Shown here one piece after another: positions 2,145 to 49,198 of a stretch of 64,000 nucleotides of DNA. Source of the DNA: Chiloscyllium plagiosum (taxonomy: Eukaryota). A program made the position numbers and the translations under genes. How positions within the stretch are numbered: position 1 is the stretch's first letter; every line of letters starts with the position of its first letter. The notes under the pieces were generated by a model. That model saw nothing but the letters and a program-made list of their open reading frames with translations. It ran no database searches and was not told the origin of the DNA. Location of the stretch: assembly GCF_004010195.1 (NCBI RefSeq), contig NC_057750.1, positions 18,700,542-18,764,541 of the forward strand. The letters run 5' to 3'.

Positions 2145-4110
2145 AAATAGAACTGTACAGCACAGAACAAGCCCTTCAGCCCACAATGTTGTGCTGAACA
2201 TGGTGCCAAATCAAAATAATCCCTTCTGCCTGCCCATGATCTATATCCTTCCATTCCTTATTTATTCATGGCCCTTAAAAGCTGCTTAAGTGCCCCATTG
2301 TTCCTGCATCCATCACTACATCTGGCAGTCATGATTCGGAGATGCTGGTGTTGGACTGGGGTGTACAAAGTTAAAAATCACACAACACCAGGTTATAGTC
2401 CAACAGGTTTAACCTGTTGGACTATAACCTGGTGTTGTGTGATTTTTAACTTTGTACATCTGGCAGCCCATTCTGAGCACCCACCACTCTCCATATAAAA
2501 AACTTGTCCCTCACATCTCCTTTGAATTCCTATAAATAAGCATGCTGTACACCTTCTTTGCCACCATATCTACTTGTGTGGCCACTTGCAGGGAGCTATA
2601 GACTGGGACCTCAAAATTCCTCTGTACATCAATGCTCTTTGGGATCCTGCCATTAACTGTATCCTGTCCCTTAAAATGTGGTTTCCGAAAGTGCAACATA
2701 CCACACTTGCCTGGATTAAAATTTATCTGCCATTTCTACCTTCACATCTGCAACTGATCTATATCTGCAGTATCCTTTGACAACCTTTGACCCTATCCAG
2801 AACTCCCAACATCTTGATGTCATCTGCAAACTTACTAACCCACCCATCTACATTTTCATCCAAGTCATTTATATAAATCACAAACAGCAGAGGTCCTAGC
2901 ATGGATCCCTGTGGAACACCAATACTCAAGGATGTCCAGGCAGAAAAACACAATTCCACCACAATCCTCTGTTTTCTATGGCTAACCTAATTCTGAATCC
3001 AAATAGCCAAGTTACCATGGATCCCACGCAACTTAAATCTTCTAAGTGAGCCTTCCATGAGAGATCTTGGGAAAGTCATGTAAAAAACCATGTAAACAAC
3101 ATCCACTGTTGTACCCCCAGCCCGTCTTCAAAAACGTCAATCAAGTTAGTAAGACAAGACCTGCCCCACAAAAAGTAGTGCTAACAGTCTCTCGTTAGAT
3201 TATACTTTTCCAAATGTACGTAGATCCTATACCTAAGAGTTCTCTCCAATAGTTTCGCAAATGCTGATGTGAGACTCAACAGTTTCTATTTCCCTGGATT
3301 ATCCCTATTTTCTTTCTTGCTAGTCGTCTGGAACCTCTCCAGTGGATAGAGAGGATATGAATATCTTGGGCAACCCAGAAATCTCCTGTCTTGCATCTCT
3401 CAATAACCTGGTCTACATCCCATCAGGTCCTGGGGACTCATCCATTTTAATGCTCTATAAGACACCTAACACCACTCCTTTCTTGACCTTAACATGCATT
3501 TGTATATTAGCATGCCCTAAACTAATCTCGCTATCCTCTTTGCCTTTCTCCTTGGTGAATGCTGTTGCAACGCACTCATTTAGAATCTCGCCCATATCCT
3601 CTACCTCCAAGCACAAATTTCTTCCTTTATCCTTGCGTGGTCCTACCCTTTCCCTAATTATTCTCTTGCTTTTAATGTGTAAAATGTCTTGAAATTCTTT
3701 TTAACCTGACTCTCCAAGGACATTTTATGGCTCCTCCTTGTTCTGCTAAATTTCTGCTTTTTTTTTGTACTTTCTTTGCATTGTTCATTGACCTGGTTCA
3801 GTTTTATCCAAACCAGGTCAATTACTTTTTGACTAAATTCACAATCTCGCTAATCATTCAAGTGTCCTACACTTTGCTATCCCTGTTCTTCTTTCTTACT
3901 GGAATATACTGGTCCTGAACTCTGATCAATAGGCATTTAAACAGCTCCCACATATCAAACATGAACTTGCTCAATAACAGCTGGTTCCAATTAACACTGT
4001 CTTGCTCCTGCCTAATACTGACATATTTTGCCCTCCCCACTTTACTAACTTCCTCTCAGATCCTGACTTATCCTTATTCATCTCTATTTTTAACTTAAGG
4101 AGTTGTGATC
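2145..4110 (-). mobile_element. CR1-type LINE fragment (RT and 3' end)
   Basis: ORF 2759-2962 GVPQGSMLGPLLFVIYINDLDENVDGWVSKFADD. Boundaries are approximate. Confidence 0.85.
2329..2458. mobile_element. Short fold-back element with a perfect 48-bp inverted repeat and 12-bp direct repeats
   Basis: Arms at 2362-2409 and 2411-2458; TACATCTGGCAG at 2317-2328 and 2455-2466. Confidence 0.85.
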
Positions 4111-10912: not shown

Positions 10913-11470
10913 CCAATGTTAAACTGTTGGACTATGACCTTGGTGTCATGTGATTTTTTTTTGTTTTAACCTTGTCCAACCCGGTCGAATACTAGCATTT
11001 TCACATCATGATTTCCTGAGAAGTCACGAATGGAGGATGGTGACTACGTCTGCAGCAAATAAGGTGAGTCAGAGAAAAAGAGTGCAGGAATTTCAGCCTT
11101 TCTTATTGTCGAACAGGTTTACTTGGAGAAGAATGCAAACTTTAAGTTGGACGATAGATTGATACAGTTAACCGTGCATTGTTTGTGGGGAAGCAATGAA
11201 TGCAGTGGTAATTCAGGGCAGTATTGTGATAGGCAATTGATATTGTCTTCTGCAGAACCAGTGGGATTTCAGAAGGCTTGTTGTTTTCCAATAATTTGGC
11301 ATATTCATTCAAAGATGCTAAAGAAAACAAAGCTTGAGAGAGAGAAACCAATTGCCTAGTTCCATGTAAACACGACATGCAAAGGCAGCACAATTATAGA
11401 GTTTCTGCGTATTTGTAGTGAAAATCTAGGTACCAAATTAAGAAGCAAAACCTCAAAAATAACAACTTCT

Positions 11471-13467
11471 AGGGTGTAGGTTTGCTCGCTGAGCTGTTGG
11501 TTTGATATCCAGACGTTCCGTTACCTGGCTAGGTGGTGACCTCCAAGTGAAGAGAAGCTGTTGTCTCTTGCTTTCTATTTATATCTTTCTCCTGGATGGG
11601 GTTCTTGGGGTTTGTGGTGATGTCATTTCCTGTTCGTTTTCTGAGAGGTTGATAGATGGCATCTAGATCTATGTGTTTGTTTATGGCGTTGTGGTTGGAG
11701 TGCCAAGCCTGTAGGAATTCTCTGGCAAGCCTTAACCATGCTGACTATCCTTGATCACATTATTCCTATCCAGATGTGCATAGATCCTATCCAGATGTGC
11801 ATATCTTTCTCCTGGATGGGGTTCTTGGGGTTTGTGGTGATGTCATTTCCTGTTCGTTTTCTGAGAGGTTGATAGATGGCATCTAGATCTATGTGTTTGT
11901 TTATGGCGTTGTGGTTGGAGTGCCAAGCCTGTAGGAATTCTCTGGCAAGCCTTTGCACCTACTCTGAGCCAAAAGATGAAAGAAAACAAACTGAACACAC
12001 AAGAAAAGAAAGCCCTAGAAAACCTCAAAAAAGACAAAAACATCGTTATATTACGTGCAGACAAAGGTTGGCTCACTGTCATCCTGGACAGAAGGGGCTA
12101 CATCGAGAAAGCCAACGCACTACTTGCAGACACCAACACCTAACAACAGGTTGCGCTAGACTCGACCCCCCACAACTAGGAAACAAAATTACATATCTCC
12201 TAAGAAAATTACACAATTAAATAAGACAGAATTCCAGAAAATGAAACCCGACTGGACCAACACCCCACGATTCTACAGACTACCAAAAATCCATAAACTA
12301 GGAGCCCCCCTCAGACCCAAAGTCTCGCTACCCGGAACACCAACTTACAGACTGGCCTAAGAACCACACGCAAGACTGAAATACCTAGTAGAAGAGTCAC
12401 AGAACTACAACCACTCCACCCAGGAATTCCTAAAAATCATCAAAAACACCAAAATAGAGAAAGACAAAGCAATGATCTCATTCGACGTAACACTGTTCAC
12501 CTCCATCAACATCGACCTGGCAAAGGAAACACTTACCACACTTTTAGAAGAGACCATCACACACACACCAACCACCATCAATCACATTACCAACGAAAAC
12601 ATCATGAAGCTAGTGGATCTGTGCCTCACCACCCACGTTACCTTTAACAACATAGTCTACAAACAAACCAATGGCATTCCCATGGGATCTCCACTATCAG
12701 ATGACACCTTTGTCATCACAAAACAAAACAAGATAGAAGAGACATTTAAAAGCATCAACAACACCCTAACAGGCATAAAGCTCACCAAGGAGGAAGAAAC
12801 CGACAACAAACTCGCATTCCTGGATGTCACAGTCGAAAGAAAGGACAACGGAGAACTACAAACCTGCGTGTACAGAAAACATCCCAACACACACAAACAA
12901 AGCTGTATCAGAACACTATTCCAACGAGCCACCACACGCTGCAGCACAGACGAATTTCGGAAAACAGAGGAGAACCACCTATACAACATATTCAAGAAGA
13001 ACGGATCCTCAAAAAATACAGTCCGCAGATTCCTCAGGAACCACCAGCTAGCCACAAAAAGACACGACCCTCTCTCCCTCTTAGCCCTACGCACAGATGA
13101 AAAAAGCCACCATTTCGACTGGGACAACGAATCTATCCTGGTACAGGTGAAGCAAAGGCATGCCAGAGAATTCCTAGAGGCCTGGCACTCCAACCACGAC
13201 GCCATAAACAAACACATAGGTCTAGATGCCATCTATCAACCCCTTGGAAAACGAACAGGAGATGACATCACCACAAACCCCAAGAACCCCATCCAGGAGA
13301 AAGATATAAAGAGAAAGCAAGAGACAACAGCTTCACTTCACTTGGAGGTCGCCACTGATGATGTTACCTAGTCAGGTAACGGGACGTCTGGATATCAAAC
13401 CAACAGCTCAGCGAGCAAACCTACACCCTAAATCTCAACCTGTGCTACAAACTTTCACAAAACTTGC
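11471..13467 (+). mobile_element. Penelope-like element (RT remnant) with an inverted 5' copy of its 3' end and a 12-bp TSD
   Basis: ORF 12472-13371 carries PLE-type RT motifs (SFDV..LFTSI, YKQTNGIPMGSPLS, DDTFVI, LAFLDV, VYRK). 11471-11950 is the reverse complement of the 3' end. TSD ATAACAACTTCT at 11459-11470 and 13468-13479. Confidence 0.9.
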
Positions 13468-15504
13468 ATAACAACTTCTGGATTATTACCTAAACAAATG
13501 CTCTCTGGAATGGGCTAAATAAGATCAGGCAGAGCAACTTCTACAGTAGATATTGGTGTCAACTCATATGGCACTTGCTTCTGTACTGATAAAAGTGGGG
13601 ATGAACCATTGGGATCGTCCATCTAATCTGAGTTGGCATCAATCTACAAATGAATGCACAAGTAATGATTGGAGAGAACTTTGAGTTAAATAATTGGTTC
13701 GGTTAAGTCATTTTGGAAAATACAGCAAATCAATGAATGTAGTGAACACCAAGGGAGAAAGGTGTTCATATGGAAATAAGGATCAGACAGTGATGGAGGG
13801 TGCTGAATATAAATCTAAATCAACAGATGACACTACAGGTGTCAAACAGATGAAGGGATAGTACAAATAAAAATGAGTATCATCTAGTAATTATTGCCAA
13901 GACTTAGTTGTAGGATGACCCGATTAGGCGTTCATGTTCAAAGAAGCTAGTAAGGGGTGAAATGGTGGTTGTTATTTAATTATTGTAACAAATGCCAGAA
14001 ATAGCAAATAGCCAGAATATCCACAAATATACAGAAGGAATCACGGACGAATTTAATTCAAATGTAGACTGAAAAAATCAAATAGACGATGGGAGACTAT
14101 ATGAAGAATTGACATCCCGAGTTTAATGCAGTTTCTTTGAACAACACACCCTGCAGCGTACCAGAGAATAGACCGCGGTCAGCCTGGTATCGTGCACCAA
14201 GATGAATTAATTAGTGACCTCATAGTGAAAGCGCCTCAGATTGCAGTTACTGGAATATGATTGAATTTTAATTTAAATGCATGTGTGAGAAGATTCAGTC
14301 CAGGATTCGTACTTCAAACTTGAACACATGCAATTCTGAAAACATGAAAACAGTGACAGCTAATGTAAACTTTCAAATTTAGCTAAGCTAGATAGATATT
14401 TAGAGGAGGTATTTCAAGGACTATTTTAGAAGGCACTGAATAAATACATAACAATGAGAAATAAAACAAAACTAAGAGAAGCACACCATTTAGGATACGA
14501 CAGAAATATTAAAGGTCGCATCAAACTTTAAGAAAAAAAAGTGCAAAGATTGGTATACGGTCAGAGAATGAAACGGGCAGACTGATGAAAAGATAAACAA
14601 GGAATGAAAAAATTGTACAAGAAATGAGAAATGTATAAAAAAAAGTACTTCATATCAGTGGTCAATATAGAGAATACAAGAAACGTTTCATAAGTAGCTG
14701 TAAAATTAGAACATGGAAGGGAAGGAGGAGCTCAGGGAAGTGGTACTTAGCAAAATGTTTGGAGCTGGGAATAAGTCCTAATTAACTTTGCCCTTGTATC
14801 TTAAAATAAGTGGCTAGTCAGATACTTGAAGATCTGTTTTTAATTTTCCAAGCTTCCCCAGATTGCGAATCTTCTGTTATTGAAAGATATTAAGTGTGTT
14901 GAAAGATCAAAAGACATCAATTAGGAACTACATATTAATTGGTGTAACTTCTGTAACCAGGACTATGTTAGAAACAATTATTAGGGCACTTAGAAAAGTT
15001 CAAGGAAATCAGACAAAGCCAAAATTATTTTTGAAAATGAATTTTTTTTAGTTTTTTAACAACATATGGGATGAAGTAATATGCAGTATGGTTAAAGGAT
15101 ATGAGCAATTGTCTCTATACTTAAATCTCCAAAAGGTATTTGACATAGCGCCAACCGCCCCAAAAAATGGCTGTTGAGGAAAATAAGAGCTCATATATTT
15201 TGGGGTGTACAGAAGATTCGTTAGCTAATAGAATCAAATAATATTCATGAAGGGCTCATTTTCTCATTGTTATAGCAATGGAGTAAATTAGATTGTTCGG
15301 ATTTTTCTTTAATTCAAAGTGAAAACTAAGGAGCAGACTTACCCATATGAACCTTGTACCAGATTAACCTTGTGCATGTTGGAGGTTAGTGTGGACAAGA
15401 ATCTACAGGGGAACATCGTGCAAACAAGAAGCTAGCATTAGCAAAACATTCCAAAGAAGGTTTGGGGTCAGGAAGGATTTAGAGACATGGAATCGAAAGA
15501 CTTT

Positions 15505-16619: not shown

Positions 16620-17740
16620 TTATCTAAAGAACGGACGTGCAGAATCTAGTTTTTGAGCAAAGTAAAATGTACTTCTACAAGTACAAGTTCACCCCACAAA
16701 CTTACTTGTGTATGTGTGTATGTGGGGTGTGTGTGTTGGGGGCGTGGTTATGAGTGTATGTAAGAGAGTGTGTGTATGTGTATGAGTGTGAGCGTAAAGA
16801 GGTGTAAGTCTGTGAAAGGGTGCGTGTGTGAGTCTGAGAGTGTATATGTGAGCGTATGAGAGAAGGTCTGCGTGAGTGGATGGGTCTGTAGGAGTGTGTG
16901 TGTGTGTGTGTGTGTGTAGGAGTTGTGTGTGTATATGCGCGTGCAGGTGTGCGCATCTGTCAGTTTGTGTGTATGGTGCAGTGGGGTCACCTTTGGTGTG
17001 ATATGAACCCAAGGTCCCGGTTGAGGCCATCCCCATGGATACTGAACTTGGCTTTCAGCCTCTGCTGGGCCACTTTTCATTGTTGCCTGTCCCAAAATCT
17101 GCTTTGGATGACAGTCACCCGAAGGTCCAAGGTGGGATGTCCTGGACTGCTGAAGTGTTCTCCAACTTGGAGGGAACACTCCTGTCTTTTGATTGTTGTG
17201 CAATGTCCATTCATCCGTTGCTATAGCCTCTGCTTGGTTTCGCCAATGTACTCTGCCTCAGGGCATCCTTGCCTGCAGCATATGAGATAGACAAAGTTGG
17301 CTGAGTACCTGCCACATACAAGTTTGGACGTGTCTCCATACATGAAGGTGGTTTCCGGTCGACATTCTGACGCGTCTTGCAGCATCTACCATGACAAGGT
17401 TGTATGGTGTTATCCTGAAAGCCAGGCAGTTTGCTTTGAACAATGATCTGTTTGTAATTTAGTGGCTGTTTAAAGGCGAAAAGTGGAGGTGTGGGAAGGT
17501 CTTGGCGAGGTGCTCATCCTCACTGAATGTGTTGCAGGCTGCGAAGAACATGGCATAGTTTTTTGGCTCCTGGGAAGTACTGGACAAGGAAGGGTACCCT
17601 GTCAGTTGCAACTCATGTCTGTCTCCTGAGGAGGTCATTATGGTTTCTCGCTGTGGCACGTCCGAACTGGCGGTCGATGAGTTGAGCATCATAGCCCGCT
17701 CTTATGAGGCAAGGATGCCCTGAGGCGTGGTACATTATTT
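16620..17740 (-). mobile_element. Penelope-like element fragment with a GIY-YIG endonuclease and a (CA)n-rich 3' tract
   Basis: Minus strand near 17240-17305 reads SANFVYLICCRQGCPEAEYIGETK (VY...YIG motif). TG-rich tract at 16705-16975, and a short inverted copy of the YIG region at about 17707-17737. Confidence 0.75.
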
Positions 17741-19162
17741 AATTAATTATTTCTTAATTTTCTTTTGCGCTCTGACACAAGTTTTAAACAGATGCAAGGA
17801 GACTGCAGTGACCAAAATCTGGCATATGGATTATAATGTGGGGAAAAAAGTGAAATGACCCAGTTTGGTAAGAGAAATAAAAACGAATCATATTACCTAA
17901 ACAATAGAAGATTACATTGAACTGAAATACACACCCATCTTAGTACACCAATCACAACATTTGTATGTGTGGAATTACATCAATTGATTCGGTAAATAAA
18001 TCGAGAATATTATCATTTATTATGGTGGGAATTGAATGCAAAAGTACTGAGATTATGCATTAGTAGTACAGAGCGTTGGTGCACATATCCTCAGTGCCAT
18101 GCACAGTATTGGTCTCTTTATTTAAGAAAGGATGTCAGTTTGTTGGAAGATTATAGGAGTGTTAACTGGAATGTGCAGATTTCTTTCATGGGAAATGGTT
18201 GGACTTATAACCACTTGAGTTTTGAAAACTAAGAGTCAGCTTGAATGAATCTATTAAACTCTCATGTGGCCTTGACAAACTGAAGGGAGAAAAGGTGTTT
18301 CCTCTCATGGGAGAACCGAGAATGAATACCAATGGTTCAAAATAATATGTCCTCTATTTAAGGCAAAAATGCGGAGATCAGCGGGTATTTGGAACCCTTT
18401 TTCAAAAGCTAGTGGAAACAGTCTTTGAGGTAGATAGACATATCAGAAGCAAAGAATCACAGTCAGAAACAGGAAGGTGGGATAAACAAATCACAAAAAA
18501 AGAGCCTTCACTTTCTCTTGATTTGAATCTTTGCACGTTCATACATTGAAATGTGCTGCTTGGGAGTGTAATATGAGCACAATTAACAACATGTTTAACA
18601 ACAAAAAAAGGATTAATGCATGTGAAGGAATTATACAGACGAAATGGGGGAGGAACAGATTGAGGCAGAGAAATTGAAGGGAAAAGACAAAGACTAGGGA
18701 CGATACCTGATATGTAATCACTAATAAGTCCATTTCGGAGTTCTGGAAAACTGTCAGAGAATAGTGGAGAAAATTGTTAAAATAATTTTGATTGATTGGA
18801 AGATTGAAGAAATTTTAAAAGAAAGCCAAATGTAAGTAGGTGGGTGAAAGCAATAGAAGAATATTCTGATCGGACTGAATAAAGCCTGGTATCAAAATCA
18901 GAAAGCCTTTTGTGATATCACTTAAAAAATAACTGGCATAGACGGGAAGTACAGAATGGCCTCTCAACAATGAAACTTAATAGTAATTGGAACTTTTCCC
19001 AATAGTACTCAAGGGAAATCCTTTTTGGTCTTGAACATTTGTCTTGCATTTTCGTATGAGAAGACAGCAAACTCGGGTTTTTTTTTATTTTGAACAGAAT
19101 GTGAACATTGCTGGCCAGGCTGGTATTATTTTTATCTACCCTTGAACTGACTGGATTTCTAT

Positions 19163-19342
19163 TCGAAGAGTGTGGTGCTGGAAAAGCACAGCCAGTCAGG
19201 CAGCACCCGAAGAGCTGGAGAGTCGACATTTCGAGCATAAGTTTTTCATCAAAAATTAAGATCTTATGCTTGAAACATGAACCGTCCTGCTCCTCGGATG
19301 CTGTCCAACTGGCTATGCTTTTTCCAACGCCACACTCTTCGA
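19163..19342. mobile_element. Fold-back short element (imperfect inverted arms, degenerate hammerhead-like core)
   Basis: TCGAAGAGTGTGGTGCTGGAAAAGCACAGCCAG... is mirrored by ...CTGGCTATGCTTTTTCCAACGCCACACTCTTCGA. Confidence 0.75.
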
Positions 19343-20260
19343 TCCTGACCTCCAGTATCTGCCGCTCTCTTTTTCTCCTGAATGAGTTTCTAGGCCATTT
19401 CTGAGGCCAGTTATGGATAGCTACATGGTTGTTGGTCTGAAATCTTTGCCATAGCAGGTTGGCACAGCAGAGTTCCTTTCCAAGACGGTATTAGTGAACC
19501 AGATGAGTTTTCGTGACAGTCAACCAATGATCACATGGTCTTTATTAGGCTAGCTTCTAATTTTTATTTAATTCACATTTCACCATCTGCTACGGGGGTA
19601 TTTAAACTCATGTCCCAGAATCTGAGCCTGGAGCTTTTGCTTACTAGTCCACCGACATTACAATTAGGTTACTGACATCTCCTGAGCATAACCATGTTTA
19701 AATAAGTGAAATCCATTCATATAGTTACAAATCAAATAAAGCTATCTTTAACTTAGAAGGCGCCCATTCGTATATAAAGTTTGGGATATTAACCTTCCTT
19801 CATACTGCAACATCGACTGCCCTTTGCATTTTTTTTTATATCTCGAGAACTTGGCCGTGAAAGTCTTTTCAAAATCTATTGATTCAATGAGTGAGAAAGA
19901 GAATGTACGATAGATGGTGAAAATATATAAGAGAAGGAGAGGATTTAAGGACCTAAATGAAAGAAGGGAAGGAGAAAAAGGTCAAGGAAACAAGGGAGAG
20001 AACACGATAGAAAACACAGAAGGTGGTTGAGGCAAGAGAACGAGAAAGCAAAAGAGAAACATAATGCAAGAGTGGAGAAACCTGCATATCTATACATCTG
20101 CTTATAAACGCTTCGTATCTTACTCTACCTGCCTAGTCATCTGCCCCGTCTACTGATATTTCTGCTTCTTCCTTTTTTGCCTCTTTTTCTTCCTGACTCT
20201 CTCCGTCTACTGACCATTTATCCGCAATTAGATCTAGTTAGGCGACCGTGCGACGGGGTG

Positions 20261-28868: not shown

Positions 28869-29417
28869 GTAGGCAGAGCTGAACTCTGATGTACTTGTGC
28901 TCTGTCTTTCCTTTCTAGGTTTAAACCGCCTTTCTGGATCATTCTTACCGTCTAAACGTGTAAATTCTATTTGTCACCGTTTCTGTCGGTCACACTGCCT
29001 TCCACACCACTTCAATTCCTCTCCCTTTCGCTCTCTCCTTACTTCTTCTGTGGGTGTCTTTAGCTTTGGCTTTATGAATGAGTCCCACAATGAGTTGCTA
29101 CACACGAAACGTTAACTCTGTTTCTCGCCCCAGGATCTTGCCATGCCTGCTAATGTTCTTCAGCATTTTCTGCTTTTATTTCAGTTCTGCAGTATTTTGC
29201 TTTTGTTTGAGGATCTCTACTTCTGTGCTTTCCTCTTTTTGGTTTGCATGGATTCTCTATCGCTTTCTCGACATTGTGCTTCATTCTAGTGTCTTTGTTT
29301 TTCTCGGACCCTCTTTCTCTGTATCTGTCACTGATTCTTTCTCTATTGCATTGTACCGCTCTCACATATTTTGTGCCCTTTCAAAGGTGTCATGTCTTTA
29401 CATTCTCTACTTTATAG

Positions 29418-29713
29418 ATGCGGCGTCAGTGCAGATCCGACAGACTCCCGCTTTTGTATCCCAGCGTCCAGGCACTTCAATCAGTATGGAATGCGTTTGC
29501 ACAGAAGCTACAGCTGGCTCAACCTTCTACTGGTATCGATGGCATCCTGGTGGACAGCCTCAGAACCTTTTTTATTCTTATGCTGGAACAATCACCCCGA
29601 ACACTGAAGTTGACGGTTTCACTGCCAGGAAATCTGGCAGCACTCACTTCTACCTCGAATCTTCCAGCCTGGGGGTGAATCACACAGCCATGTATTACTG
29701 TGCCTGGAGTTTA
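29418..29713 (+). CDS. TRBV: TCR beta V segment #4, V exon (apparently functional, CAWS type)
   Basis: DAASVQIRQTP...MECVC...FYWYRWHPGG...NHTAMYYCAWSL after a tttatag acceptor. The longer 215-aa ORF in the track is intron read-through. Confidence 0.93.
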
Positions 29714-29752
29714 CACACTGACTAAGAGAGATGGGGGTGTTCAACAAAAACC
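29714..29752 (+). other. 23-RSS of V#4
   Basis: CACACTG, 23-bp spacer, ACAAAAACC. Confidence 0.93.
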
Positions 29753-30114: not shown

Positions 30115-31649
30115 GGTATGACAAACAGTGTCTGGCAGAAGGGCATTAAAGCAGCTCACAGACAGTATATAAGCAGGAGGCTGGAAGAACGCAACAAGCC
30201 AGGCAGCACCGGGAAGTGAAAATGTCAACATTTCGATTGTAACCCTTCTTCAGGACTGGGGGTAGTTGTAGGGAGCTGCACATAAAGGGAGTGAGAGGCA
30301 AGGTGATGAGATGGGGATAGGTGATCACAAGTAGAGGGTACCACCTGGTTGGGAGGAATGAATCCAGTTGGTGGCTCGAAGGAAGGGGCTTGGAAGGTGG
30401 CTCACCTCTGATGAGAGGAATGGAAGGGAGGGGAAGGGGCTTGGAAGGGAGTTGGATGATGGGAAGGGAGGTTATTTGACATTGGACAACTCAATGTTAA
30501 GTCTTCTGGGCTGTACTTTGCCTAGACGGAAGATGTGGTGTTGAGTAGATGCCGTTCACCAGCGTGGAATTGATGGGTGTAATGGGAAGCAGTTGTCCAA
30601 TGAATCATCCTGCTCTCACACTGTCTGAATGACAGACCAGACCTTTCAAGATTCAGGAACATGCTTTTGAAATGGTTTGTTCTTCCATTCCCTAACATGC
30701 CCCCTCACTCAAGGACCGTACTTTTGTGCCTTTGCGTACAAAATGACAGCTACTCGGAGTAAAATTGACTTCTGTTTCAGCTATGAACATTTAGCTGGGA
30801 TCTAATTCAAATGCTGAAAATGTTGCAAGAATTTGATACGTAGAGATGGAGAAGTGGCATTCTATGGTGAGACAGTACTTTTCCCTATTGTATAACAAAA
30901 TGCACGTGACAGTAAATAAATTAAATAACATGTCAGTCTGCAGAACAGGAGCATAAGTATCGGGTTAACAAGTGAACTGCAGCTGGCAATAAAGGGTGGT
31001 GGAATAGTAAAAGTCATTTGACATGGTGAATAATGAAGATTTGTAAAAGATTCTAATGTGATTAATAAGTATGTATTCACTAGGTATATCAAATGTGACT
31101 GAAACAAAATTGGATTAGAGTCTTCAAGTCCAAATTGGACAGGATTTGATAAAATGTTAGAATAGGATTGAGGAGCCGATTCAACTCCTAAACCTATTCA
31201 AGTAGCTAGAAAGGCTGAAGTGCCATTCTCCTTCCCTTGTATTACAGGTTGGAGGGAGTTGAACGGCATACTCGAACTTCTATATAATGGGCTCGTGTGG
31301 GTCTATTCCGCCTCCTGTTCCTGTGTTTGTAACTGTGTTTGTAACTAGTGGAAGCACGATGGGTCTCCTCCTGTTTCCCTCGAAGAATGGCTGAATGTCT
31401 TTCTGTCATTCCTATATAACCGACCTCAGACACGCTTAGCGGGTTCTCTCCTTTTCCCATGTAGCAATCTTCGCAGCCTGAAAAGGATTTCCTCCGGAAC
31501 CTGTGTAGCAGGCTCGACAGAAGAGAATTATTCTCGTCCTTTCCCTCGATAACACAACTCAATTACATCCTTCTATCCATTCAGTCTGATTAAATCAACT
31601 TTCATATGCCCTTGCATTTCGTTATGTAGGCCCTGTCACCGTTCATAGA

Positions 31650-31980: not shown

Positions 31981-32400
31981 CATTGATGCCTTTGTCTGCC
32001 CCTGTTGTTCATGTAGCGTCAGTGCATAAAAAGTCGTTGTGGTTTTATTTGCAAAAAACCTTATAGCATATACAATATGTTAAAATTATCTGAAATTATT
32101 GTTACGATTTTATCTACATGCATCTCATTAAACCTTAACTTTAAAGGCATCGGAGAGGTTACCCGATGGTCTTTTCTTCACAAAGACTCCTAGTCTCCCA
32201 ATTAGTATTAAGAACTCACTTCAGCTAGCACGCTTGCAAATATCCGTTTCCACTGTATTCAGCACTCCGCACACAATCTGAATCTTTATTTGAACCCGGC
32301 TGGTGTATTCATCAAGATCATTTCACTCTGTAAAATAAACCTCAATAAGACAAAGCGCAGCCTGGTTTTGATTCTCACAACTGTTTCCTGCCGCCATTCG

Positions 32401-32439
32401 AGTTTTTGTTGAGCTGCTCCTTCTTTCTGAGTCACTGTG
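32401..32439 (-). other. 23-RSS of V#5
   Basis: CACAGTG, 23-bp spacer, ACAAAAACT. Confidence 0.94.
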
Positions 32440-32738
32440 AATACTCCAAGCGCAGTAATACACGGCCGAGTGATTCACCAACAAGCTGGAGGACTTCAGA
32501 ATGAATTGGTATTCATTTGGTCGCTTGGCTGTGAAACCGATAACCGGCTGATCTGAACCCACTCTTTCTGTGGTTAGGGAATAAAACATCAACTGCAGTT
32601 CCTTCTCTGGATATTGCCTGTACCAGTACATGGAGATGCTATCGGTGCTCCCCTCCACAGCGCAGTTCAGTTCTAATTTATCCTGAGGATTTCTGCAAAC
32701 AGCGGCGGGAGTCTGGCGGATAGTCTGCAATTTCACAT
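32440..32738 (-). CDS. TRBV: TCR beta V segment #5, V exon (apparently functional, inverted, CAWS type)
   Basis: VKLQTIRQTP...LNCAV...MYWYRQYP...NHSAVYYCAWSI in an open frame after a ttccag acceptor. Confidence 0.93.
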
Positions 32739-32876
32739 CTGGAAAAGAGAGAGTGAAAGGGTGAAGGTCAGAGGAGTCATTTGGGCTAATAGAGAGAAAT
32801 AAACGCGTATTAAAAGAACGGGAAACAGTTATGAAGTATTGATTAAGTCATATTATTATTGATATATATTCCTTAC

Positions 32877-32913: not shown

Positions 32914-35373
32914 ATAGAGTATTGCCCTCTCAATCTATAAAGAGGCAAGAGCAGAATTGGGGAGTGCGTGATTAACAATATTCTTAAACGATTGGAAAGA
33001 AGGTTAAGGGCGAAAGGAAGTGACGTAACTGCACCCGCCCTTCCTCGAATTGAACCAATGTGATCGACTTGACTGTTAATATTTTCCTTTATCTCGCATT
33101 TTCATCTTGGGCTGTTCTCTTGTCCTTTCTCTCTTAACAGTACTCCCTCTGCATACGCCAAACCACGCTCCCTGGATTTCCAGCCCAGTGATTTTATCAC
33201 TCTGCCCCCACGTCCAAATTAGCATAATTTGCTAATAAGATGCAACTAAACACATCTATATTCTTAATTACCAAAAGGTACAGTACACTCCCACGTTTGT
33301 AATGGCATGGCGGATGAGGTCAGTAACTAAGACATTCTGGGATAGAAAGAAAGTTATAAAGAAAAATTATTAATGAAAGGATTTGCTTTCAAACTTTTTA
33401 CAGAGAAACATGTCCTTCAGCCCTAGTGACAGCTGATCGCAACACTTCCCTTTTAAGATTGTAAATCCGAGAACACAGCATGAAGTCACACGGGGAACTG
33501 AACTACTGCTCCAATTAATTGAGTACTTATGAAGAGAAAAAAGAAATTATATCACAATGAATACGCCTCTTCCTTCAATCAAATCAACCCGACTGGATGT
33601 TGTCGCTAAACTAGCGATTATAAACGTCATTATTTATCTTTAATCAGCCTTTTTGGACATGTAGTGACACACCTCCGAGCAAGTAGTTCTTGAAGCCAGA
33701 CATTCTTGCCCAGAGATAGATATATTACCACTGTCGCTTTCAGTTACTGTTTAATGTTGCACAAAATGATGCCTGTCATCGATATTGTGCTAGACAATTG
33801 AAATCACCACATCTAGATTTTCGATTATTACATTATCTTCACCGAATCCTTAATCATCCTCATGTCAGTTCCCAACAAACCAGATGTCCCTTAGTGGTTA
33901 CTGAAGGCCTTTTGGTACAAGTGGCATAAAATGCAGAAATACCCTAGCACGCAGAGATAAGCATATTTTTAGGCACAGGAGGATCAGGGAGAACTAATGA
34001 CGTTCCCTTGATCGAGAACATTGCACAGGACCCTCACGGTATTGAGACAATTGGTAAACCAGGCCACATCAGTAATCCCTCTCAATAAGCTGAAGTGCGA
34101 ATATCCACAAGTGTAAAACTAAATGGAACAAAATGTTTCTAACTATATGTCATTAATATTCTTAATTTCTGAAAATCAATTTCTCCGGTGTAGTAAATTC
34201 TTAAATGGCTTAGTGATGTGTGTAAACCAGATAGTCAAGATTCATCTCCTGTGCCACAAATATGGGTTCAAAGTTGGGATCTTATATTCTTTACAGATGT
34301 ATTGTAAAAAGGGATATAAATCGTCAATTAAATATCCAGAAATATGTGGCTTTTAGAAAGGACAGACAGGAAGAAAAAAATGATACGGTAGGTTTTTTTT
34401 TAGCATGCATTAGCAAGAAATTATCATTATTCAGAAGATGTCGAATCCAGACAGGTGAAGTAATAAGAAGAGGACGAAGACACTTGTTGGCCCTCTTGTG
34501 GTGCGGTGGCACTGCCTTTAGTCCTGAACCAAGAGATCTGGGTTCAAGTCCTTCCATTCAGTAGGCGTGAAATAATATCTCTGAACAGATTGCTTGGGAA
34601 AATAGGTTAAATAAAAATAATGGCGACAGTGGTAGGAATGCTATTGACCCTATAACAGTAGCCATACGGTAAACAATATGAGAGATAGAAGAGAGAGAAC
34701 TCAGTGAAATACATAATTATGTCCCGAAAGTACATTGTAGAAGAAGAGAGATTAGAGGACTTAAGATACATAGTAGTAATAAACGGCTGGCCTTGTTTAA
34801 ATGCAACCCAGGACATTATGGTAAGGTATGGAAGAAGCTGTGTGGCCACTAGCAAAGATACTTGTATAATCTAAAGCACAGGTGAGGTGCCAGAAGACTG
34901 AAGAATGGCTAATGTTGTGTCTTTATTACAGACAGGCTGGAAGAAAGTCCAGGGAATGATGGCCTGGTGAGTCTGACATCAGTGGAGGGTAAGTTGTTGC
35001 AGAGGGGATTCTGAGAGGCAGGATCTACATGCATTTGGAAAGGCAAGGGCTGATTAGGAATAGTCAATATGGCTTTGTGTGTGGGAAATCGAGTCTCACT
35101 AACTTGATTGAGGATTGTGAGAACAAAATGAGGGCAGAACTGTAGATGCTGTCTTCATGAGACAAGGCCTTTGACAATGTTCTGCATGGTAGTCTGGTCA
35201 GATAACATTGGATCCAAGGAGAGGTAGCCAATTGGATTCAAATTTCGCTGGACAGTAAATAGTTGGTGTTTAATGTTCACTTTTAGATTTAAGGAATAAA
35301 AACCAGATTTACCGTGGTGTCATCACTTGCTTTGAATTCACTATTAGATTTAGGATGACAGTATTTTAAACAG

Positions 35374-35889
35374 GCGAAAGTGAGGACTGCAGATGCTAGA
35401 GATCAGAGTCAAAATTAGAGTGGTGCTGGAAAAGCACAGCAAGTCAGGCAGCATCCGAGGAACAGGATCAGAGCCTTCCTGATGAAGGGCTCCTGCCCGA
35501 AAGGTCGATTTTCCTGCTCTCTGATGCTGCCTGACCCGCTGTGCGTTTCCAGCACCACTCTACGGGCGGCACGGTGGCACAGTGGTTAGCACTGCTGCCT
35601 CACAGCACCAGAGACCTGGGTTCAAATCCCGCCTCAGGCGACTGACTGTGTGGAGTTTGCACATTCTCCCTTTGTCTGCGTGGGTTTCCTCCAGGTGGTC
35701 CGGTTTCCTCCCACAGTCCAAAGATGTGCTGGTCAGGTGAATTGGCCATGCTAAATTGCCTGTAGTGTTAGGTGAAGGGGTAAGTGTAGGGGTATGGGTG
35801 GGTTGCGCTTCGGCGGGTCGGTGTGGACTTGTTGGGCCGAAGGGCCTGTTTCCACACTGTAGGTAATCTAATCTAAACTAATCTACTCT
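35374..35889 (+). mobile_element. Fold-back hammerhead-core element with an 18-bp TSD, containing a nested full-length V-SINE
   Basis: TGACAGTATTTTAAACAG at 35356-35373 and 35890-35907; inverted arms at about 35416-35466 and 35512-35562. Confidence 0.85.
35563..35884 (+). mobile_element. Full-length tRNA-derived V-SINE (HE1-like)
   Basis: Pol III A box (TGGCACAGTGG), B box (GGTTCAAATCC), V-domain, CR1-like 3' tail and (AATCT)n end. Confidence 0.88.
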
Positions 35890-37019
35890 TGACAGTATTT
35901 TAAACAGTCGGCCCATAGTTTCTTTTACTTTTTTCCTCCACTACTCATACAATCTACTCTTTCTCAAGTTAGATTCCAGTTGAAGTATTTTCTCTGATTT
36001 GGAACTTACTGTTTAATCCACTTCAGTCACACTTTTAGGCAGAACATTCTGTATTTTCATTAATTCGGATGGATTTGCCTGATTCTCTTTTAACATTTTG
36101 ATCGCCTGTGGACATATCTGGTAAAGGGAGCGTACGTTGTACACACTTAATTGCCCTTAAACTGAAGGCTTCACTAGGCCATTTCAGAGGATAGTTTAAT
36201 AGTCAACCACGTTGTTGTAGATCTGGAGTCATGTGCAGGTCGGACGAGACAGGTACACTTTCTTCCCAAAGGGGATTAGCAAATAAGATGGCTTGTTGAT
36301 TTTGTTGATGAGCTTGTATGTGTGAATGACTAGCCAGTCATATTTGTGACGTTATTGTGCCTTTAAGGGAGATGTGTTTTGTCGTGTTTCTCTCGCAGAG
36401 GTGTGTTTTCACCATGGCAGCGAGGTATCAGCTTCAGGCACGTGGACTAAATAGCTTTGCTTTTTTTAAATTACACTGTGGACAAAAAAAGCATGAATGG
36501 GCGCAGTCACGACTCAGACAAACCCAGAAAGGTTTATTTTTAGTTTTACTTTCAGTTAGTTGAAGATTTCTGCTGGCAATGAGCTAAATGCTTCAGTTCC
36601 AAGCTGCAAGAGTGATATCTTCGACGACAGAAGAGGCAAATAGTTTCTTTCTTCTGGGCTGAACACCTAGATATTTCTGTCAAGTATTCTGGTTCTGTGT
36701 AATCTGGCAACAGACACTTTTAGATTTTCTTTCAGAATAGGTGGACAACGCCAGTAAGGAAGGTTTTCCTAGCTAACACTAAATACTTTGAGAAGGTGGT
36801 GGTTCCTTGCCTGCTTGAATCTGCAGTTAATCTGATGCAGGTACACCAGCCATGCTGTTAGGAATGGAGTTCGAGCGAAAGTGAGGGAAATTTGATATAA
36901 TACCACTTCAGGACAATATTTGATTTGGAAAGCCACTTGAAGTTTGCGGTATTCTCCTGTTTTTTTCCTATTCATTTCCTACTCAGTGGAAAAGGTCGCG
37001 GGTTTGAAAGTTGATGTGG

Positions 37020-37312
37020 TTAGATTAGATTAGATTACATTACAGTGTGGAAACAGGCCCTTCGGCCCAACAAGTCCACACCGACCCGTCGAAGCGCAAC
37101 CCACCCCTACATTTACCCCTTACCTAACACTACGGGCAATTTAGCATGGCCAATTCACATAACCTGCACATTTTTGGACTGTGGGAGGAAACTGGAGCAC
37201 CCGGAGGAAACCCACGCAGACACGGGGAGAATGTGCAAACTCCACACAGCCAGTCGCCTGAGGCGGGAATTGAACCCGGGTCTCTGGCGCTGTGAGGCAG
37301 CAGTGCTGCACC
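37020..37312 (-). mobile_element. HE1-like V-SINE
   Basis: Reverse complement of the 35563-35884 element with a (TAGAT)n tail. Confidence 0.88.
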
Positions 37313-37591
37313 GCCCACGGTGCATCTTGTAAACTGCAAATTGCACTACTGCAACTATTCCTTGGAGAGCTGCTACTGTGAGAGGAAACGTTGCTCGCAT
37401 AAATACTCTACCGAAGCGATAGTATCACGTGCCAAATGGTCTAATTGCTCCCACTCTGCTCTAAAGAGAAGCATTCCAACTTTTCCCTTTCTTTGGTACA
37501 TCTATGATAAATCTCGCTTTAATCTTCTCTGCTGAAAATGTGTTGCTGGAAAAGCGCAGCAGGTCAGGCAGCATCCAAGGAGCAGGAGAAT

Positions 37592-37620
37592 CGACGTTTC
37601 GAGCATGAGCCCTTCTTCAG
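37592..37620 (-). ncRNA. Minimal type I hammerhead ribozyme-like core in a short repeat
   Basis: Minus strand CTGAAGA-a-gggc-tcat-gctc-GAAA-CGTCG, which fits CUGANGA, stem II, GAAA, short palindromic stem III and GUC. Confidence 0.6.
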
Positions 37621-38745
37621 GAATCCAAGGAGAGCAATGCAACGTTTCCAGTTTGTGCCCGAAGCAGAGGAAATTTATCCCTCTCCCCATTCAATAATCG
37701 AAGCCATTGACTAATGGAAAGTTTGCACTGATACACTTGTGCAGAACTGAATTTGGAGAGGGGTTGGTGGAAGAGTCAGAATGCCCGTATTGCGAGAACG
37801 AGATATTTTGAAAGGGTCTATACTGAAAACACGGTCGAGAGTATGGGCTGTATTATTTTATGCTATCGGATCGTCAATACCGAGGACATGATTCAACTGA
37901 CACTTTGTCCTATTCTCTGTTGGACGTATAATTTCTTACGGGCATTTTTCTAAAGCGTCTGGAGACGTCCCTTGCTTCCAAACCAATATTTTAAATGCAC
38001 AATGCAATTTCTGCTCATGGTCACAATGTTATTCAGCTTCTTCAGTGCACATTTGCTAGCTCCTTTCAAATGTATCCTTCACCTGAATGTTATTTTTGGG
38101 TTTGGAAAGGACATGCCCGTCCTGAAAATATCAGAGGCCCTCAGAACTGGATGCCAGTTCTTTCTTACTTACGTAATTTCCGGCTCCGACAATTTCGTTT
38201 GTCTGTGACCACTAATCAGTGCCGTCGTCATCCTCAGTGGTGAATTGAGGCATTTCAGTTGCCGAATCATGCATCTCCACTTGCTCACCTGTTCATTCTC
38301 CTAGTTTTGAGCCCGAGTAAGATATATGGAACTTTTAAAGTTTTGCACTAGAGGCCTTTGGGACATCGATTAGTTAAACTTAATTGTGCTGTTTTCGCAT
38401 TGTACCGATGGGCAATTATGAGAAACAATTCACACATTAACGTCCGCAGCATGTGCATCCGCAATCCGTACTTGCGATTTGCAACCGAATAACATTATTT
38501 TAGCTGATAAAATATATAATGATATATATTATATAATGTTTTCAGTATAACAACGTATTTCTGTTGTTTGTCACTTATTTACTATGGCTTTTAAATACCA
38601 GATTTATCATGTTGTTATAAACTGGAGTTAGATAACGAACCTGTTTTATCCAGAGGCGGTCCTCGGTTGCATTAGTTTTATGTCGAATTTCGATTACAAA
38701 TTTCTAAAATGGAGCTGATCATGAAATACGTCGCTTTTCCTTTAG

Positions 38746-39040
38746 ACTGTCCGCTGGCAGATGTAACACACCAGTGGGCACTTTCCCGCTCCGTTAAAAA
38801 ACGGTGAACAGGCCGTAGTAAATTGTTATCAGAATGAGACAATTCGTAGCAACAGACTGTGGTATCGCCAGAAACCTGGAGGCCGTTTCAAACTCATCCG
38901 GTGTCAGCACAGGAGCAACGACGCTGTGTATGAAGAGGACTTCAAGTCACGATTCGAAATCACACGAGAGGATGTCTACCCGGACAATCAACAATGTTGG
39001 CCCCGCAGATGAGGCAAATTATTTCTGTGCAGCCAGCGAA
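38746..39040 (+). pseudogene. TRBV: TCR beta V pseudogene #6 (frameshifts, no recognisable RSS)
   Basis: Across at least two frameshifts it reads ADVTHQW...GEQAVVNCYQNE...LWYRQKPGG...EEDFKSRFEITRE / TINNVGPADEANYFCAASE. No CAC heptamer follows. A possible frameshifted leader lies at 38269-38316. Confidence 0.85.
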
Positions 39041-43689: not shown

Positions 43690-44058
43690 GTAAGCTAACT
43701 TCAAACCCATTGTTCTTGCGTTGAAACAAAGTTCGCTTACGTGTAACTTTTTCGAGCGAAGTATGAGTTATGTTATACTAATATTTTGCTATATAACAAA
43801 TATGTATTCATTAAGTATGTCTCTCCTGTTAAGTAACATAGAATTCTTAGGGAGACATTTTGGCTGTGGCATCTTTTAGATTAGTTTATACAAAAAGCTG
43901 GAACAAATTAGCTGGGAGAATTGACTTCCTTTTTGTGCCATATGATTTGTTAAGATTATTTTCGGTAGAAAACACACTGTGATGTATGGAAGCCATCGTT
44001 CTTCATCCATTCGACTACAGTCGTTACATTAACGGAATTATCTTGTTTTCCATTTCAG

Positions 44059-44360
44059 GCCATTGTCGGTGCGTTTCAGTGTCTCAGATTCCCAGAGAAC
44101 TGACTGTGCGCCGAGAGGACACCGCAGCGTTGACCTGTCAACAGGAGGACAGTGATTACATTACAATGCTCTGGTACCGGCAATCTGGTGGACAGGGTCT
44201 GCAACTTGTGGCGGTTGACGTATCTGGGAATAAACCCACTTTCGAGAGAGGATTCGAGAAGGGGTTCGACGTGGTGAGACGCAATCTGAAAACGTCCATT
44301 CTAAAAATTCTCTCTGTAAACCCGGGTGATACGGCGATGTATTTCTGCGCTGCAAGTGAA
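44059..44360 (+). CDS. TRBV: TCR beta V segment #7, V exon (apparently functional)
   Basis: HCRCVSVSQIP...LTCQQ...MLWYRQSGGQGLQLVA...GDTAMYFCAASE after a tttcag acceptor. Confidence 0.94.
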
Positions 44361-44399
44361 CACAGTGTTTGAAATCTCTTATGGGGCTTGACAATAACC
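44361..44399 (+). other. 23-RSS of V#7
   Basis: CACAGTG, 23-bp spacer, ACAATAACC. Confidence 0.93.
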
Positions 44400-46589
44400 A
44401 TCTTGTAGCATTTCAAGAGCTATATTTTCCTGTTTGTACCTTTCCGATGTCAGTTCCCCGCTATCCCTCATGTGTTGGCATGTCCAACTATATTGTCCAC
44501 TTACAAATCAATGAATGGTTTGGTAATCTGACAGAAAGAGAGTCAGACAATTCACAAAATCTGTCAACCAAATGCAAGGCATGAGTCAGGAATTTAATGA
44601 ATACTTCCCAGTTGTCTGGATGAATGGACCTGAAAACTTTCAAGAAGCTTGACATACAAATTAGCTCACTTGATTGGCACGACATCCACAAAAAAATCGT
44701 TCCTTTCAGCATTGACATTGAACAGCAGCAATGTGTACCAGTTAAAATGTGCTCTATAAATATTCATCAAATAAACAACACCTTCCAAATCTATGACTGG
44801 CACCGACTAAAAGATGGACAGGAGGGACATGGGGGCACCATCACCTGCAAGTCCCTCTCCAAACAATTCGCCATGATGATTTGAAACTACATCACTATTC
44901 GTTCAGTATCCCTGAGTCCAAGTGTTAAAACTGCCAACGATTCCTCTAAAGGCATTTTGGGTTTACGTATAACAAACAGATTGCAATAGTTCAATCACAT
45001 TTCAAAGTCATCAAGGGATGGGAAATAACTTCAGGTTTAAGTAACGATACCCACATCCCACGAATTAATGATAACCAGGGTGTGAGGGGAAGACAGATTG
45101 CATATGCATATAGGCTAAAATAAGGTGTAAGTGAAGAAAAATGGTAAAAGAAGCGTGAAAACTTTAGTTTCTTTCTCAAAATAGGTTTGCAATTCGTATC
45201 AAGATGGCTATAGCAATGTGATATCCCAGAGAAGTGGTCGCAAGGTAAAACAGAGAAATAATCAGGGAAGTGCATATGCCAGGGTAATTTGACAGTTTGG
45301 AAGTATAAAAAACACAGATGAGATGGTCAGATGATTATCCAATAAATGATGAAATGATGAATGAATCAGGCCTGATGAAGGACTTATGCCCGAAGCATCG
45401 ACTCTCCTGCTCCTCGGATATTTGCCTGACCGGGTGTGCCTTTTCCTGCACCACACTCTTCGACTCACATTTTCAAATAGGCCTCTATTTTTTCTTACCT
45501 GAAATATTCAAAGCTGTGGTTGGGGGCTGGGACATGAGCAGGTGGGGAATGATTCTGACGGTATGGGGAATCCAGAAGAAATTATATCCCTGACTGCGGT
45601 GGGATTTGTACTACACAACAAATACAAGAGATCGTCACTTGTAAGAAACTAAGCCTAATTGACAGAGAGACTTTGAGTTGATGGGAGCCAGTGAATGAAG
45701 GCTAGTGCATGAGGTACATTTATGTAGGGACTGGGGGAGTGATTAAAATATGGTGGTGATTGTGAGCCTGAGGGGTTTGGGGTGGATCGAGGGAATGAAC
45801 AGATCGGATGCCAGGGGTGGCATTGCTAGTCTTAATGGGAGATTGTAGTGTTGCATACAGATGGTGAATAACGTATGTCTTGGGCCGATGGATCCACAGG
45901 TAGGTTTGAAGGCTGAGGGACGAGGAGGGAACAGAAGACAACATGGGGTGTTGCAGAGAACGGTTTAAAAAAGATAAGTGGCTGCCCATACATGGGACTT
46001 CCTCAGGCTGGCCTGCCGAATTCAAGAGGTATTGGAATGGTTTTCACCTCCTGGATCTGCAGATCCTCACCTAGTTGTGGTTGGCTGGTTCGCCAATGCT
46101 TGGAAAACCTGGATGACCAGGGTTAAACTTGAAAAATCAAATGATGTTATTGCCACTGCATCATTGCCATATTTGCTTCCGTGGAGTGAGATAGCTAATT
46201 CCCACGTTTTAGCCACAGTTACAACTGGGCATCAGCACACACAAGGCTACTAAGCACGCTCTAATACAAAGTGCTAGTTCCTCAAATTAATCTTTCAACT
46301 ATAACTTTGATATAATCTGTGTTCATGTCTTCCCAAATGATGCATTTCAATTGTTGACTTTTATTTTGCTCATGTGCTTCCAGATATATCGTTGATCTGC
46401 GCCCCATTACTAGAATAGAAATGCAAAAGATTTCCGATTTCCTCCTTTGTTCTAAGTTCTTTGCACAGGAAATGAATAATTTTCAATGTCTCACATTTTA
46501 AAAAAGCACACATTTGATGTAGTGTGGTTGAGGTTCGCTCGTGGCAGACAGAGATGTATCGTCTGTTGTCACATAATATAGACTAAAAA

Positions 46590-49159: not shown

Positions 49160-49198
49160 CACAGAGGCGCAAGTAAGTGATCCTTCAGTTCAAAAACC
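49160..49198 (+). other. 23-RSS of V#8
   Basis: CACAGAG, 23-bp spacer, TCAAAAACC. Confidence 0.9.

What the first reader, a model, noticed from the sequence alone, without database searches (positions are those of the whole stretch)
35356..35907. Family of short fold-back, TSD-flanked retroelements carrying minimal hammerhead ribozyme cores (retrozyme-like, probably Penelope-mobilised)
Seen: a recurrent repeat of about 100-200 bp contains CTGA(T/A)GA, a 4-bp stem-loop, GAAA and (C)GTCGA. Copies: 35479-35507 (+, CTGATGAagggctcctgcccGAAAggtc), 37592-37620 (-, intact core), 45372-45400 (+, GAAG variant), 30225-30253 (-) and 19220-19250 (-, decayed). Two copies have inverted arms (19163-19342 and 35416-35562), and one has an 18-bp TSD. 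Known: PLE pLTRs carry minimal type I hammerheads that cleave as dimers, and PLE insertions often have an inverted 5' copy. Inference: this is a non-coding, self-cleaving, non-autonomous family that uses the PLE RT/GIY-YIG machinery also present in this window. It may be poorly characterised in sharks.
Basis: partly seen in the sequence, partly recalled or inferred. Interest (0 to 1): 0.75.

Follow-up and report, generated by a model that had tools for sequence, protein, structure and literature searches.

The report
Truncated shark Penelope retrotransposon end
This hairpin-shaped insertion with a damaged hammerhead-ribozyme motif is real, but it is most likely the cut-short end of a very abundant, known type of jumping gene (a Penelope-like element) into which a separate short repeat probably jumped later, rather than a new self-copying element.

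Summary
The motifs, inverted arms and 18-bp duplication are present as described. The retrozyme reading is not supported. The 552-bp interval is a duplication (35356-35373 / 35890-35907) around a 42-nt one-sided tail, an inverted arm, a hammerhead-bearing arm and an unmentioned 322-bp SINE-like repeat. The same layout (12-bp duplication, inverted piece, 37-38-nt one-sided tail) surrounds a coding Penelope-like element (PLE) at 11.5-13.5 kb and a palindrome at 2.3 kb. It is the published PLE insertion signature. The family is very abundant (63,268 contigs in one run), continues upstream in other copies, has variable junctions and decaying cores, and is rarely tandem. Only 1 of 5 listed cores is complete. 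In one polyA RNA run, reads come from both strands and run on past the element, with no start or end pile. The window's RT-bearing PLE has an unrelated terminal repeat, so it is not the shown partner. I did not see this family's full-length parent. One open detail: copies tend to stop at the hammerhead's front edge, and 15 of 22 shown fold-back contigs join that edge to the cleavage site. Earlier scan notes reached the same reading elsewhere in this genome and in others.

The parts
35356..35373 (+). Left copy of the 18-bp target-site duplication (AT-rich)
   Evidence: Exact repeat; chance control
35374..35415 (-). 42-nt one-sided tail: family sequence present on the inverted arm only
   Evidence: Unpaired in arm alignment; matches shared loose ends of other copies (X21 agreement 0.74) and the 19.3-kb tail (27/35)
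35416..35467 (-). Inverted, 5'-truncated arm without a hammerhead core; starts about 5 nt past the predicted cleavage site
   Evidence: 46/51 identical to the direct arm; alignment
35468..35478 (+). Junction and the few bases retained upstream of the core
   Evidence: Sequence, compared with loose ends
35479..35508 (+). Minimal type I hammerhead motif: CTGATGA, 4-bp stem II, GAAA, GTC; helix III palindrome lost, so predicted inactive
   Evidence: majority of copies keep the palindrome
35509..35562 (+). Direct arm downstream of the hammerhead, ending without the tail
35563..35884 (+). Separate SINE-like repeat with (AATCT)n end, probably inserted later; 5-bp repeat ACTCT at 35557 and 35885
   Evidence: 269/287 identical to the copy at 37020-37317; further copies near 10.6, 23.5, 31.8 and 61.3 kb; SINE label rests on layout and recall, ARAGORN found no tRNA
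35890..35907 (+). Right copy of the 18-bp target-site duplication
37535..37624 (-). Solo copy with the only complete hammerhead core in the family here; starts 4 nt upstream of the core; no duplication found
45372..45465 (+). Solo copy with a broken core (GAAG, ATC)
19150..19366 (.). Older fold-back copy, arms 76% identical, cores broken, no long duplication found
30160..30545 (-). Sister-family copy: short open frame ending at 30474 (possible endonuclease end), pyrimidine-rich stretch, decayed hammerhead (30225-30253) and tail
   Evidence: Whole span is multi-copy and single contigs join its parts; protein identity of the frame not significant
11459..13479 (+). Comparison element: broken Penelope/Poseidon-type PLE with RT and endonuclease remnants, inverted 5' pieces, 38-nt one-sided tail and 12-bp duplication; unrelated terminal repeat
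2317..2466 (.). Comparison element: near-perfect palindrome with a 37-nt one-sided extension and a 12-bp duplication; different sequence family
16990..17733 (-). Comparison element: broken linker plus GIY-YIG fragment of a Neptune-like PLE, with a 27-bp inverted piece at its 5' end

Best explanation
The interval is a hairpin-shaped insertion between two 18-bp duplications that is most likely the 5'-truncated terminal repeat (pLTR) of an abundant, probably Neptune-type Penelope-like retrotransposon, with a SINE-like repeat probably inserted afterwards. Proposed steps: (1, inferred from published PLE work) the element's GIY-YIG endonuclease nicks AT-rich DNA and its reverse transcriptase starts inside the RNA at one of two sites about 40 nt apart, which leaves a tail on one arm only; (2, inferred) copying stops early, often at the front edge of the hammerhead; (3, inferred) a second, inverted piece is made at the landing site, possibly by the cDNA end folding back on helix I; (4, shown) the result is duplication, tail, inverted arm, direct arm, duplication; (5, shown) the core has since mutated. 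The hammerhead is a passenger that belongs to the parent element, and single copies would not be expected to cleave.
For: The same layout, with a 12-bp duplication and a 37-38-nt one-sided tail, surrounds a coding PLE (11459-13479) and a third family (2317-2466) in this window. It matches the inverted 5'-truncated copy plus 30-40-bp tail in PMC8557442 (passages), the 8-10-bp duplications and 31-bp tail in PMC3846280 (passages), and internal initiation in PMC11167929. Most minimal hammerheads occur as single motifs of truncated PLEs (PMC4209133). Other copies share sequence upstream of the core that no window copy retains (loose-end agreement 0.52-0.7 in RNA reads). Fold-back joints fall at 8 different inner positions among 9 shown rows (37565 to 37592). 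Core CpG positions decay like non-core ones in X1: G12 11%, G16.2 15%, C15.2 12%, against 7-16% outside the core. The sister copy at 30.2 kb keeps about 290 bp of upstream repeat that ends in an open frame, and contigs join it to the hammerhead.
Against: The frame at 30.5 kb did not score as a PLE endonuclease end: not found by the whole-domain profile, rank 713 of 5297 scored peptides with a C-terminal profile, and rank 14 of 4894, E 12, with a motif-picked profile. The Neptune label is therefore inference. The 5' ends are not random: all 4 window copies of this family that reach the core start within about 10 nt of it, and in DNA contigs the upstream loose ends agree at only 0.33-0.35. Head-to-tail joints exist (12 contigs in the shown rows). 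Only 1 of 5 copies has a long duplication.
Confidence: 0.8

Rival explanations
1. The 90-130-nt hammerhead-to-tail unit is a SINE-like non-autonomous element with its own short RNA, copied in trans by a PLE protein.
For: 5' ends cluster at the front edge of the core in 4 of 4 window copies that reach it. Copy number is very high (63,268 and 66,540 contigs). pLTR sequences alone can mobilise in trans (PMC3846280).
Against: Shared upstream sequence in other copies and variable junctions. No start or end pile in 2,755 RNA reads, 99% of which run on into unlike sequence. The same layout surrounds coding PLEs. A preferred stop, or the start of the parent's own RNA, would give the same clustering.
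Confidence: 0.12
2. It is a non-LTR retrozyme: tandem hammerhead units that self-cleave, circularise and reinsert.
For: Head-to-tail joints of about 90-95 nt in a few contigs (37624 to 37530 in 5+1 contigs, 37620 to 37531 in 3). Retrozymes derived from pLTRs were reported in the one cartilaginous fish sampled (10.64898/2026.07.22.740005).
Against: 0 of 5 window copies are tandem. Tandem joints are 12 shown contigs among about 130,000 laid, although short-word assemblies undercount repeats. Copies keep the core upstream of the cut site, which a cleaved monomer would not. Opposed arms cannot form the dimer. 4 of 5 cores are broken.
Confidence: 0.05
3. The 18-bp duplication was made by the SINE, or by a joint SINE-PLE template switch, so the whole 516 bp is one insertion.
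For: The SINE's 3' end lies 5 nt from the right duplication; the 5-bp repeat around the SINE is within chance (mean longest shared word 5.3).
Against: 0 of 5 other SINE copies have a flanking repeat longer than 5 bp, while 2 other PLE fold-backs have 12-bp ones.
Confidence: 0.1

Closest known systems
Insertion unit of endonuclease-bearing PLEs: pLTR, adjacent inverted 5'-truncated copy, one-sided 30-40-bp tail, duplication (Arkhipova et al. 2013 PMC3846280; Craig et al. 2021 PMC8557442; passages read)
   Same: Inverted truncated arm, tail on one arm only, flanking duplication, hammerhead in the terminal repeat
   Different: No coding sequence left; duplication 18 bp against 8-10 bp in the rotifer examples; tail 42 nt; a SINE-like repeat is nested inside
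Minimal type I hammerheads of metazoan PLEs (Cervera and de la Pena 2014, PMC4209133; parts 1-2 of 4 read)
   Same: Conserved core, unpaired base before stem II, palindromic positions 15.2-16.2 in place of helix III, mostly solo motifs, some pairs on opposite strands
   Different: Stem II is 4 bp; helix I is weak (2 bp, a mismatch, 1 bp in the majority); sharks were not named in the parts read
Non-LTR retrozymes (Cervera and de la Pena 2020 PMC7229834, passages; Li et al. 2026 bioRxiv 10.64898/2026.07.22.740005, parts 1-3 of 5)
   Same: Non-coding, type I hammerhead, related to pLTRs, long duplications when present
   Different: Defined by tandem units with a complete hammerhead in each and by circular RNAs; here copies are solo or head-to-head, mostly broken, and no unit RNA was seen
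Poseidon_Ac of the green anole (Frangieh et al. 2024, PMC11167929; parts 1-2 of 4 read)
   Same: AT-rich target, tail between two initiation sites, uncleaved RNA as the main template, no RNA reads ending at the cut site
   Different: Different clade and sequence; mechanism shown in vitro there, only inferred here

Membership tests
EN+ PLE truncated insertion | Inverted 5'-truncated copy adjacent to the direct copy | tested here: met
EN+ PLE truncated insertion | 30-40-bp tail at one end only | tested here: met
   42 nt here; 37 and 38 nt in two other window elements. The nested SINE could have shortened the right arm.
EN+ PLE truncated insertion | Target-site duplication | tested here: met
   18 bp exact; empty site not examined
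EN+ PLE truncated insertion | Hammerhead motif in the terminal repeat | tested here: met
EN+ PLE truncated insertion | Terminal repeat continuous with an RT/GIY-YIG frame in longer copies | tested here: inconclusive
   Upstream extension shown; sister family reaches an open frame, which did not score significantly
Neptune clade | CX2-5CxxC linker and RT phylogeny of the parent | not testable with these tools
   Parent not seen; the linker is present only in relatives of the unlinked 17-kb fragment
Minimal type I hammerhead | Complete core with palindromic 15.2-16.2 | tested here: met
   Met by the 37.6-kb copy and the family majority; not met by the flagged 35.4-kb copy
Minimal type I hammerhead | Stem II covariation | tested here: met
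   GGGC/GCCC majority in this family against GGGT/ACCC in the sister family: one compensatory pair
Minimal type I hammerhead | Self-cleavage as a dimer | not testable with these tools
   Needs an in vitro assay; a co-fold of two copies did not give the helix III pairing
Non-LTR retrozyme | Two or more tandem units, each with a complete hammerhead | tested here: not met
   0 of 5 window copies; rare tandem joints elsewhere
Non-LTR retrozyme | Unit-length linear or circular RNA | tested here: inconclusive
   No start or end pile in X21, but a polyA single-cell library, about 2 in 100 of it read, cannot show circles
Partner of the window's RT-bearing PLE | Shared terminal repeat | tested here: not met
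   Scores 14-18 against shuffle maxima of 22-29

The most novel reading that the evidence does not exclude
The short copies are run-off cDNAs from the front end of the PLE's RNA: the RNA starts just upstream of the hammerhead, the reverse transcriptase starts at the nearby tail site, and the cDNA end snaps back on the complement of helix I. That would join the core's front edge to the cleavage site and build the hairpin. It would make the hammerhead's fold, not its cleavage, the determinant of PLE inverted ends, and would make this a tens-of-thousands-copy SINE-like by-product that occasionally seeds tandem retrozyme units.
Probability: 0.25. Interest if true: 0.55.

Novelty: new member of a known kind. 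Interest (0 to 1): 0.2.

Why it matters
As it stands this is an ordinary, probably dead transposon remnant between antigen-receptor V segments. Its use is as data. How PLEs make their inverted ends is unresolved (PMC3846280 infers self-priming; PMC11167929 leaves later steps unvalidated), and a family with tens of thousands of copies gives enough junctions to test whether helix I or the RNA start sets the stopping point. My searches found no paper describing this shark family or fold-back at helix I. The library lacks most subscription journals, and Dfam/Repbase could not be checked.

Tried and rejected
Rfam scan: no hammerhead match; the MIR862 and mir-3015 hits at 2.36-2.46 kb reflect a palindrome and are below gathering scores. 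No whole genome was held. Pattern scans of viral and metagenome contigs gave 0 matches each. The first homologue search with the 17.2-kb piece gave 0 of 64 candidates. Pfam found nothing in the PLE frames: 0 families for the 5 PLE-region frames among 18 sent. One search used a mis-sized pattern and is void; one search replaces it. The upstream motif of the family is absent from the window. The 30.5-kb frame was not confirmed as an endonuclease end by three local profiles or by blastp (best E 0.46), and a language-model look-alike search of it was not obtained, so its identity stays open. A two-copy co-fold did not form helix III. No RNA holder was listed in the run index. Run X22 laid 0 reads and is no test. 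Depth slopes across the element were not used as truncation rates, because clipping at mismatches and edge effects distort them. Lunse et al. on PLE hammerhead dimers was not held; I saw it only as cited in PMC6765202. The name HE1/V-SINE for the nested repeat is recalled; the paper checked had 0 mentions of HE1. Rejected: assembly artefact (contigs of two species lay on the 37.6-kb flanks, and 78 in 100 words of 34900-38000 are held by run X1, which may be the source sample); microRNA precursor; the window's RT-bearing PLE as partner.

Full report
Setting. The window is a cluster of antigen-receptor V segments: 7 of 18 frames sent to Pfam hit V-set, 6 above the curated cut-off. Relatives of its transposon proteins are shark proteins, so the host is likely a shark. 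No whole genome was held, so genome-wide evidence comes from laying public runs on two stretches.

Observation. The strict pattern occurs twice against 0.00 expected. The copies are homologous, and the 30.2-kb copy is a more distant relative (E 2.5e-6). Only the 37.6-kb copy has a complete core. The flagged copy has lost the ACGT palindrome, and the other three have further core or stem changes. Rfam gave no hammerhead match.

Anatomy of 35356-35907. In order: duplication (35356-35373), 42 nt of family sequence with no partner on the other arm (35374-35415), an inverted arm (35416-35467), a short junction, the hammerhead (35479-35508), the direct arm (to 35562), a SINE-like repeat (35563-35884, 269/287 identical to the copy at 37.0 kb) and the second duplication. 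The five other SINE copies have no flanking repeat over 5 bp, so the 18-bp repeat most likely belongs to the fold-back, with the SINE added later. That order is inference; I did not examine an empty site.

The layout is a PLE signature. Two unrelated sequence families in the same window share it. A broken Penelope/Poseidon-type element at 11459-13479 has RT and endonuclease remnants, inverted 5' pieces, a 38-nt one-sided tail and a 12-bp duplication. A palindrome at 2317-2466 has a 37-nt one-sided extension and a 12-bp duplication. A Neptune-like fragment at 17.0-17.7 kb also has an inverted piece at its 5' end. Craig et al. describe an inverted 5'-truncated copy and a 30-40-bp tail, often at one end only (passages). 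Arkhipova et al. show the same with 8-10-bp duplications and infer self-priming (passages). Frangieh et al. trace the tail to two internal initiation sites, find uncleaved RNA to be the main template and see no reads ending at the cut site. Cervera and de la Pena report that most minimal hammerheads are solo motifs of truncated PLEs, some paired on opposite strands, and that a tested monomer did not cleave.

Family-wide evidence. On 37460-37730, 63,268 contigs of run X1 and 66,540 of run X11 (another species) lay on the 90-bp element, while the flanks are single-copy. These are contigs, not copies, and X1 may be the window's source. Majority letters restore a perfect 4-bp stem II (GGGC/GCCC); the sister family has GGGT/ACCC, one compensatory pair, so the motif is a real structure at family level. 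Core CpG positions are changed in 6-15% of depth, like non-core positions (7-16%), as expected for unselected copies. Loose ends show shared sequence upstream of the core that is absent from the window, and the tail downstream. Head-to-tail joints appear in 12 contigs in the shown rows, with 14 rows not shown. In the RNA run X21, 2,755 reads lay on both strands, 99% run on into unlike sequence, and no start or end pile appears, including at the predicted cut site. That library is polyA single-cell, about 2 in 100 of it was read, and it cannot show circles.

Link to a coding parent. This is the weakest step. The sister copy at 30160-30545 keeps about 290 bp upstream of its hammerhead. That whole span is multi-copy (3,891 contigs laid in X1), single contigs join the hammerhead region to segments at 30350-30463, and one joint is a partial tandem. 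It ends upstream in a short frame stopping at 30474. Read by eye, the majority letters move that frame towards the pattern seen at the ends of P0139 and P0175. The unaltered peptide did not score significantly against three local profiles, so 'endonuclease end' and 'Neptune' remain inference. The RT-bearing PLE in the window is not the partner: its terminal repeat, which has its own hammerhead with a long stem II (13356; intact core at 55056), aligns no better than shuffles.

The unexplained detail. All 4 window copies of this family that reach the core begin within about 10 nt of it. Of 22 contigs in the 9 shown opposite-strand rows, 15 join 37623-37624 (3-4 nt upstream of the core) to 37590-37592 (the predicted cleavage site), in both species. 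Those two points are the two strands of helix I, so a cDNA ending there could fold back and prime itself, which would explain both ends without cleavage. A switch to a cleaved RNA is the alternative. Caveats: the reference ends at 37624, so joints further upstream cannot be listed; the numbers are small; the 35.4-kb junction fits only roughly and the 19.2-kb junction does not fit. One search found no paper on this.

Earlier scan notes. Notes on other pieces of this genome and on other genomes reach the same reading and mention the same front-edge stop. One reports a decayed GIY-YIG frame upstream of a hammerhead family that may be this one; I could not check it. These are unchecked notes, not support.

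Verdict. A real but ordinary truncated PLE end with a nested SINE: a new member of a known kind, interest 0.2. It works like a PLE insertion unit and meets four of the five features listed for it, with the fifth inconclusive. It fails the tandem criterion for a retrozyme. Supplements of the bioRxiv retrozyme paper, which list families per species, could not be seen and may bear on whether this family is already catalogued.

Noticed in passing
window 7328-7666, 20238-20600, 29078-29725, 32323-32847, 38767-39012, 43983-44372, 48786-49274: Antigen-receptor V segments on both strands (Pfam V-set; 38767 is below the cut-off); a J-like frame lies near 63008-63223. T-cell-receptor identity is inferred from motifs only.
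   Followed up: partly
window 61736-62534 and 63202-64000: An 800-bp duplication at 98% identity next to the J-like segment.
   Followed up: no
window 54885-55160: Truncated Poseidon-type terminal repeat with an intact hammerhead core and a long stem II at 55056-55090.
   Followed up: partly
window 11459-13479: Broken coding PLE with two nested inverted 5' pieces; 11581-11733 and 11801-11953 are 100% identical.
   Followed up: partly
window 2317-2466 and about 10918-11037: A near-perfect 89-bp palindrome with a 12-bp duplication that gives false microRNA hits in Rfam; an older relative lies near 10.9 kb.
   Followed up: partly
window 560-660 and 29095-29175: Two mutually similar pieces (51/71) that look like a further hammerhead-tail family with decayed cores.
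   Followed up: partly
window 19163-19342: The two arms of one fold-back are only 76% identical (against 90% at 35.4 kb): great age, or two different templates.
   Followed up: no
window 45355-45377: The bases just before the core look like tiny inverted pieces of the family's own front edge, a possible micro fold-back; read by eye only.
   Followed up: no
proteins P0015, P0023, P0028: Annotated shark host-gene isoforms that contain PLE-derived stretches (62-79% identity), likely repeat sequence included in gene models.
   Followed up: no
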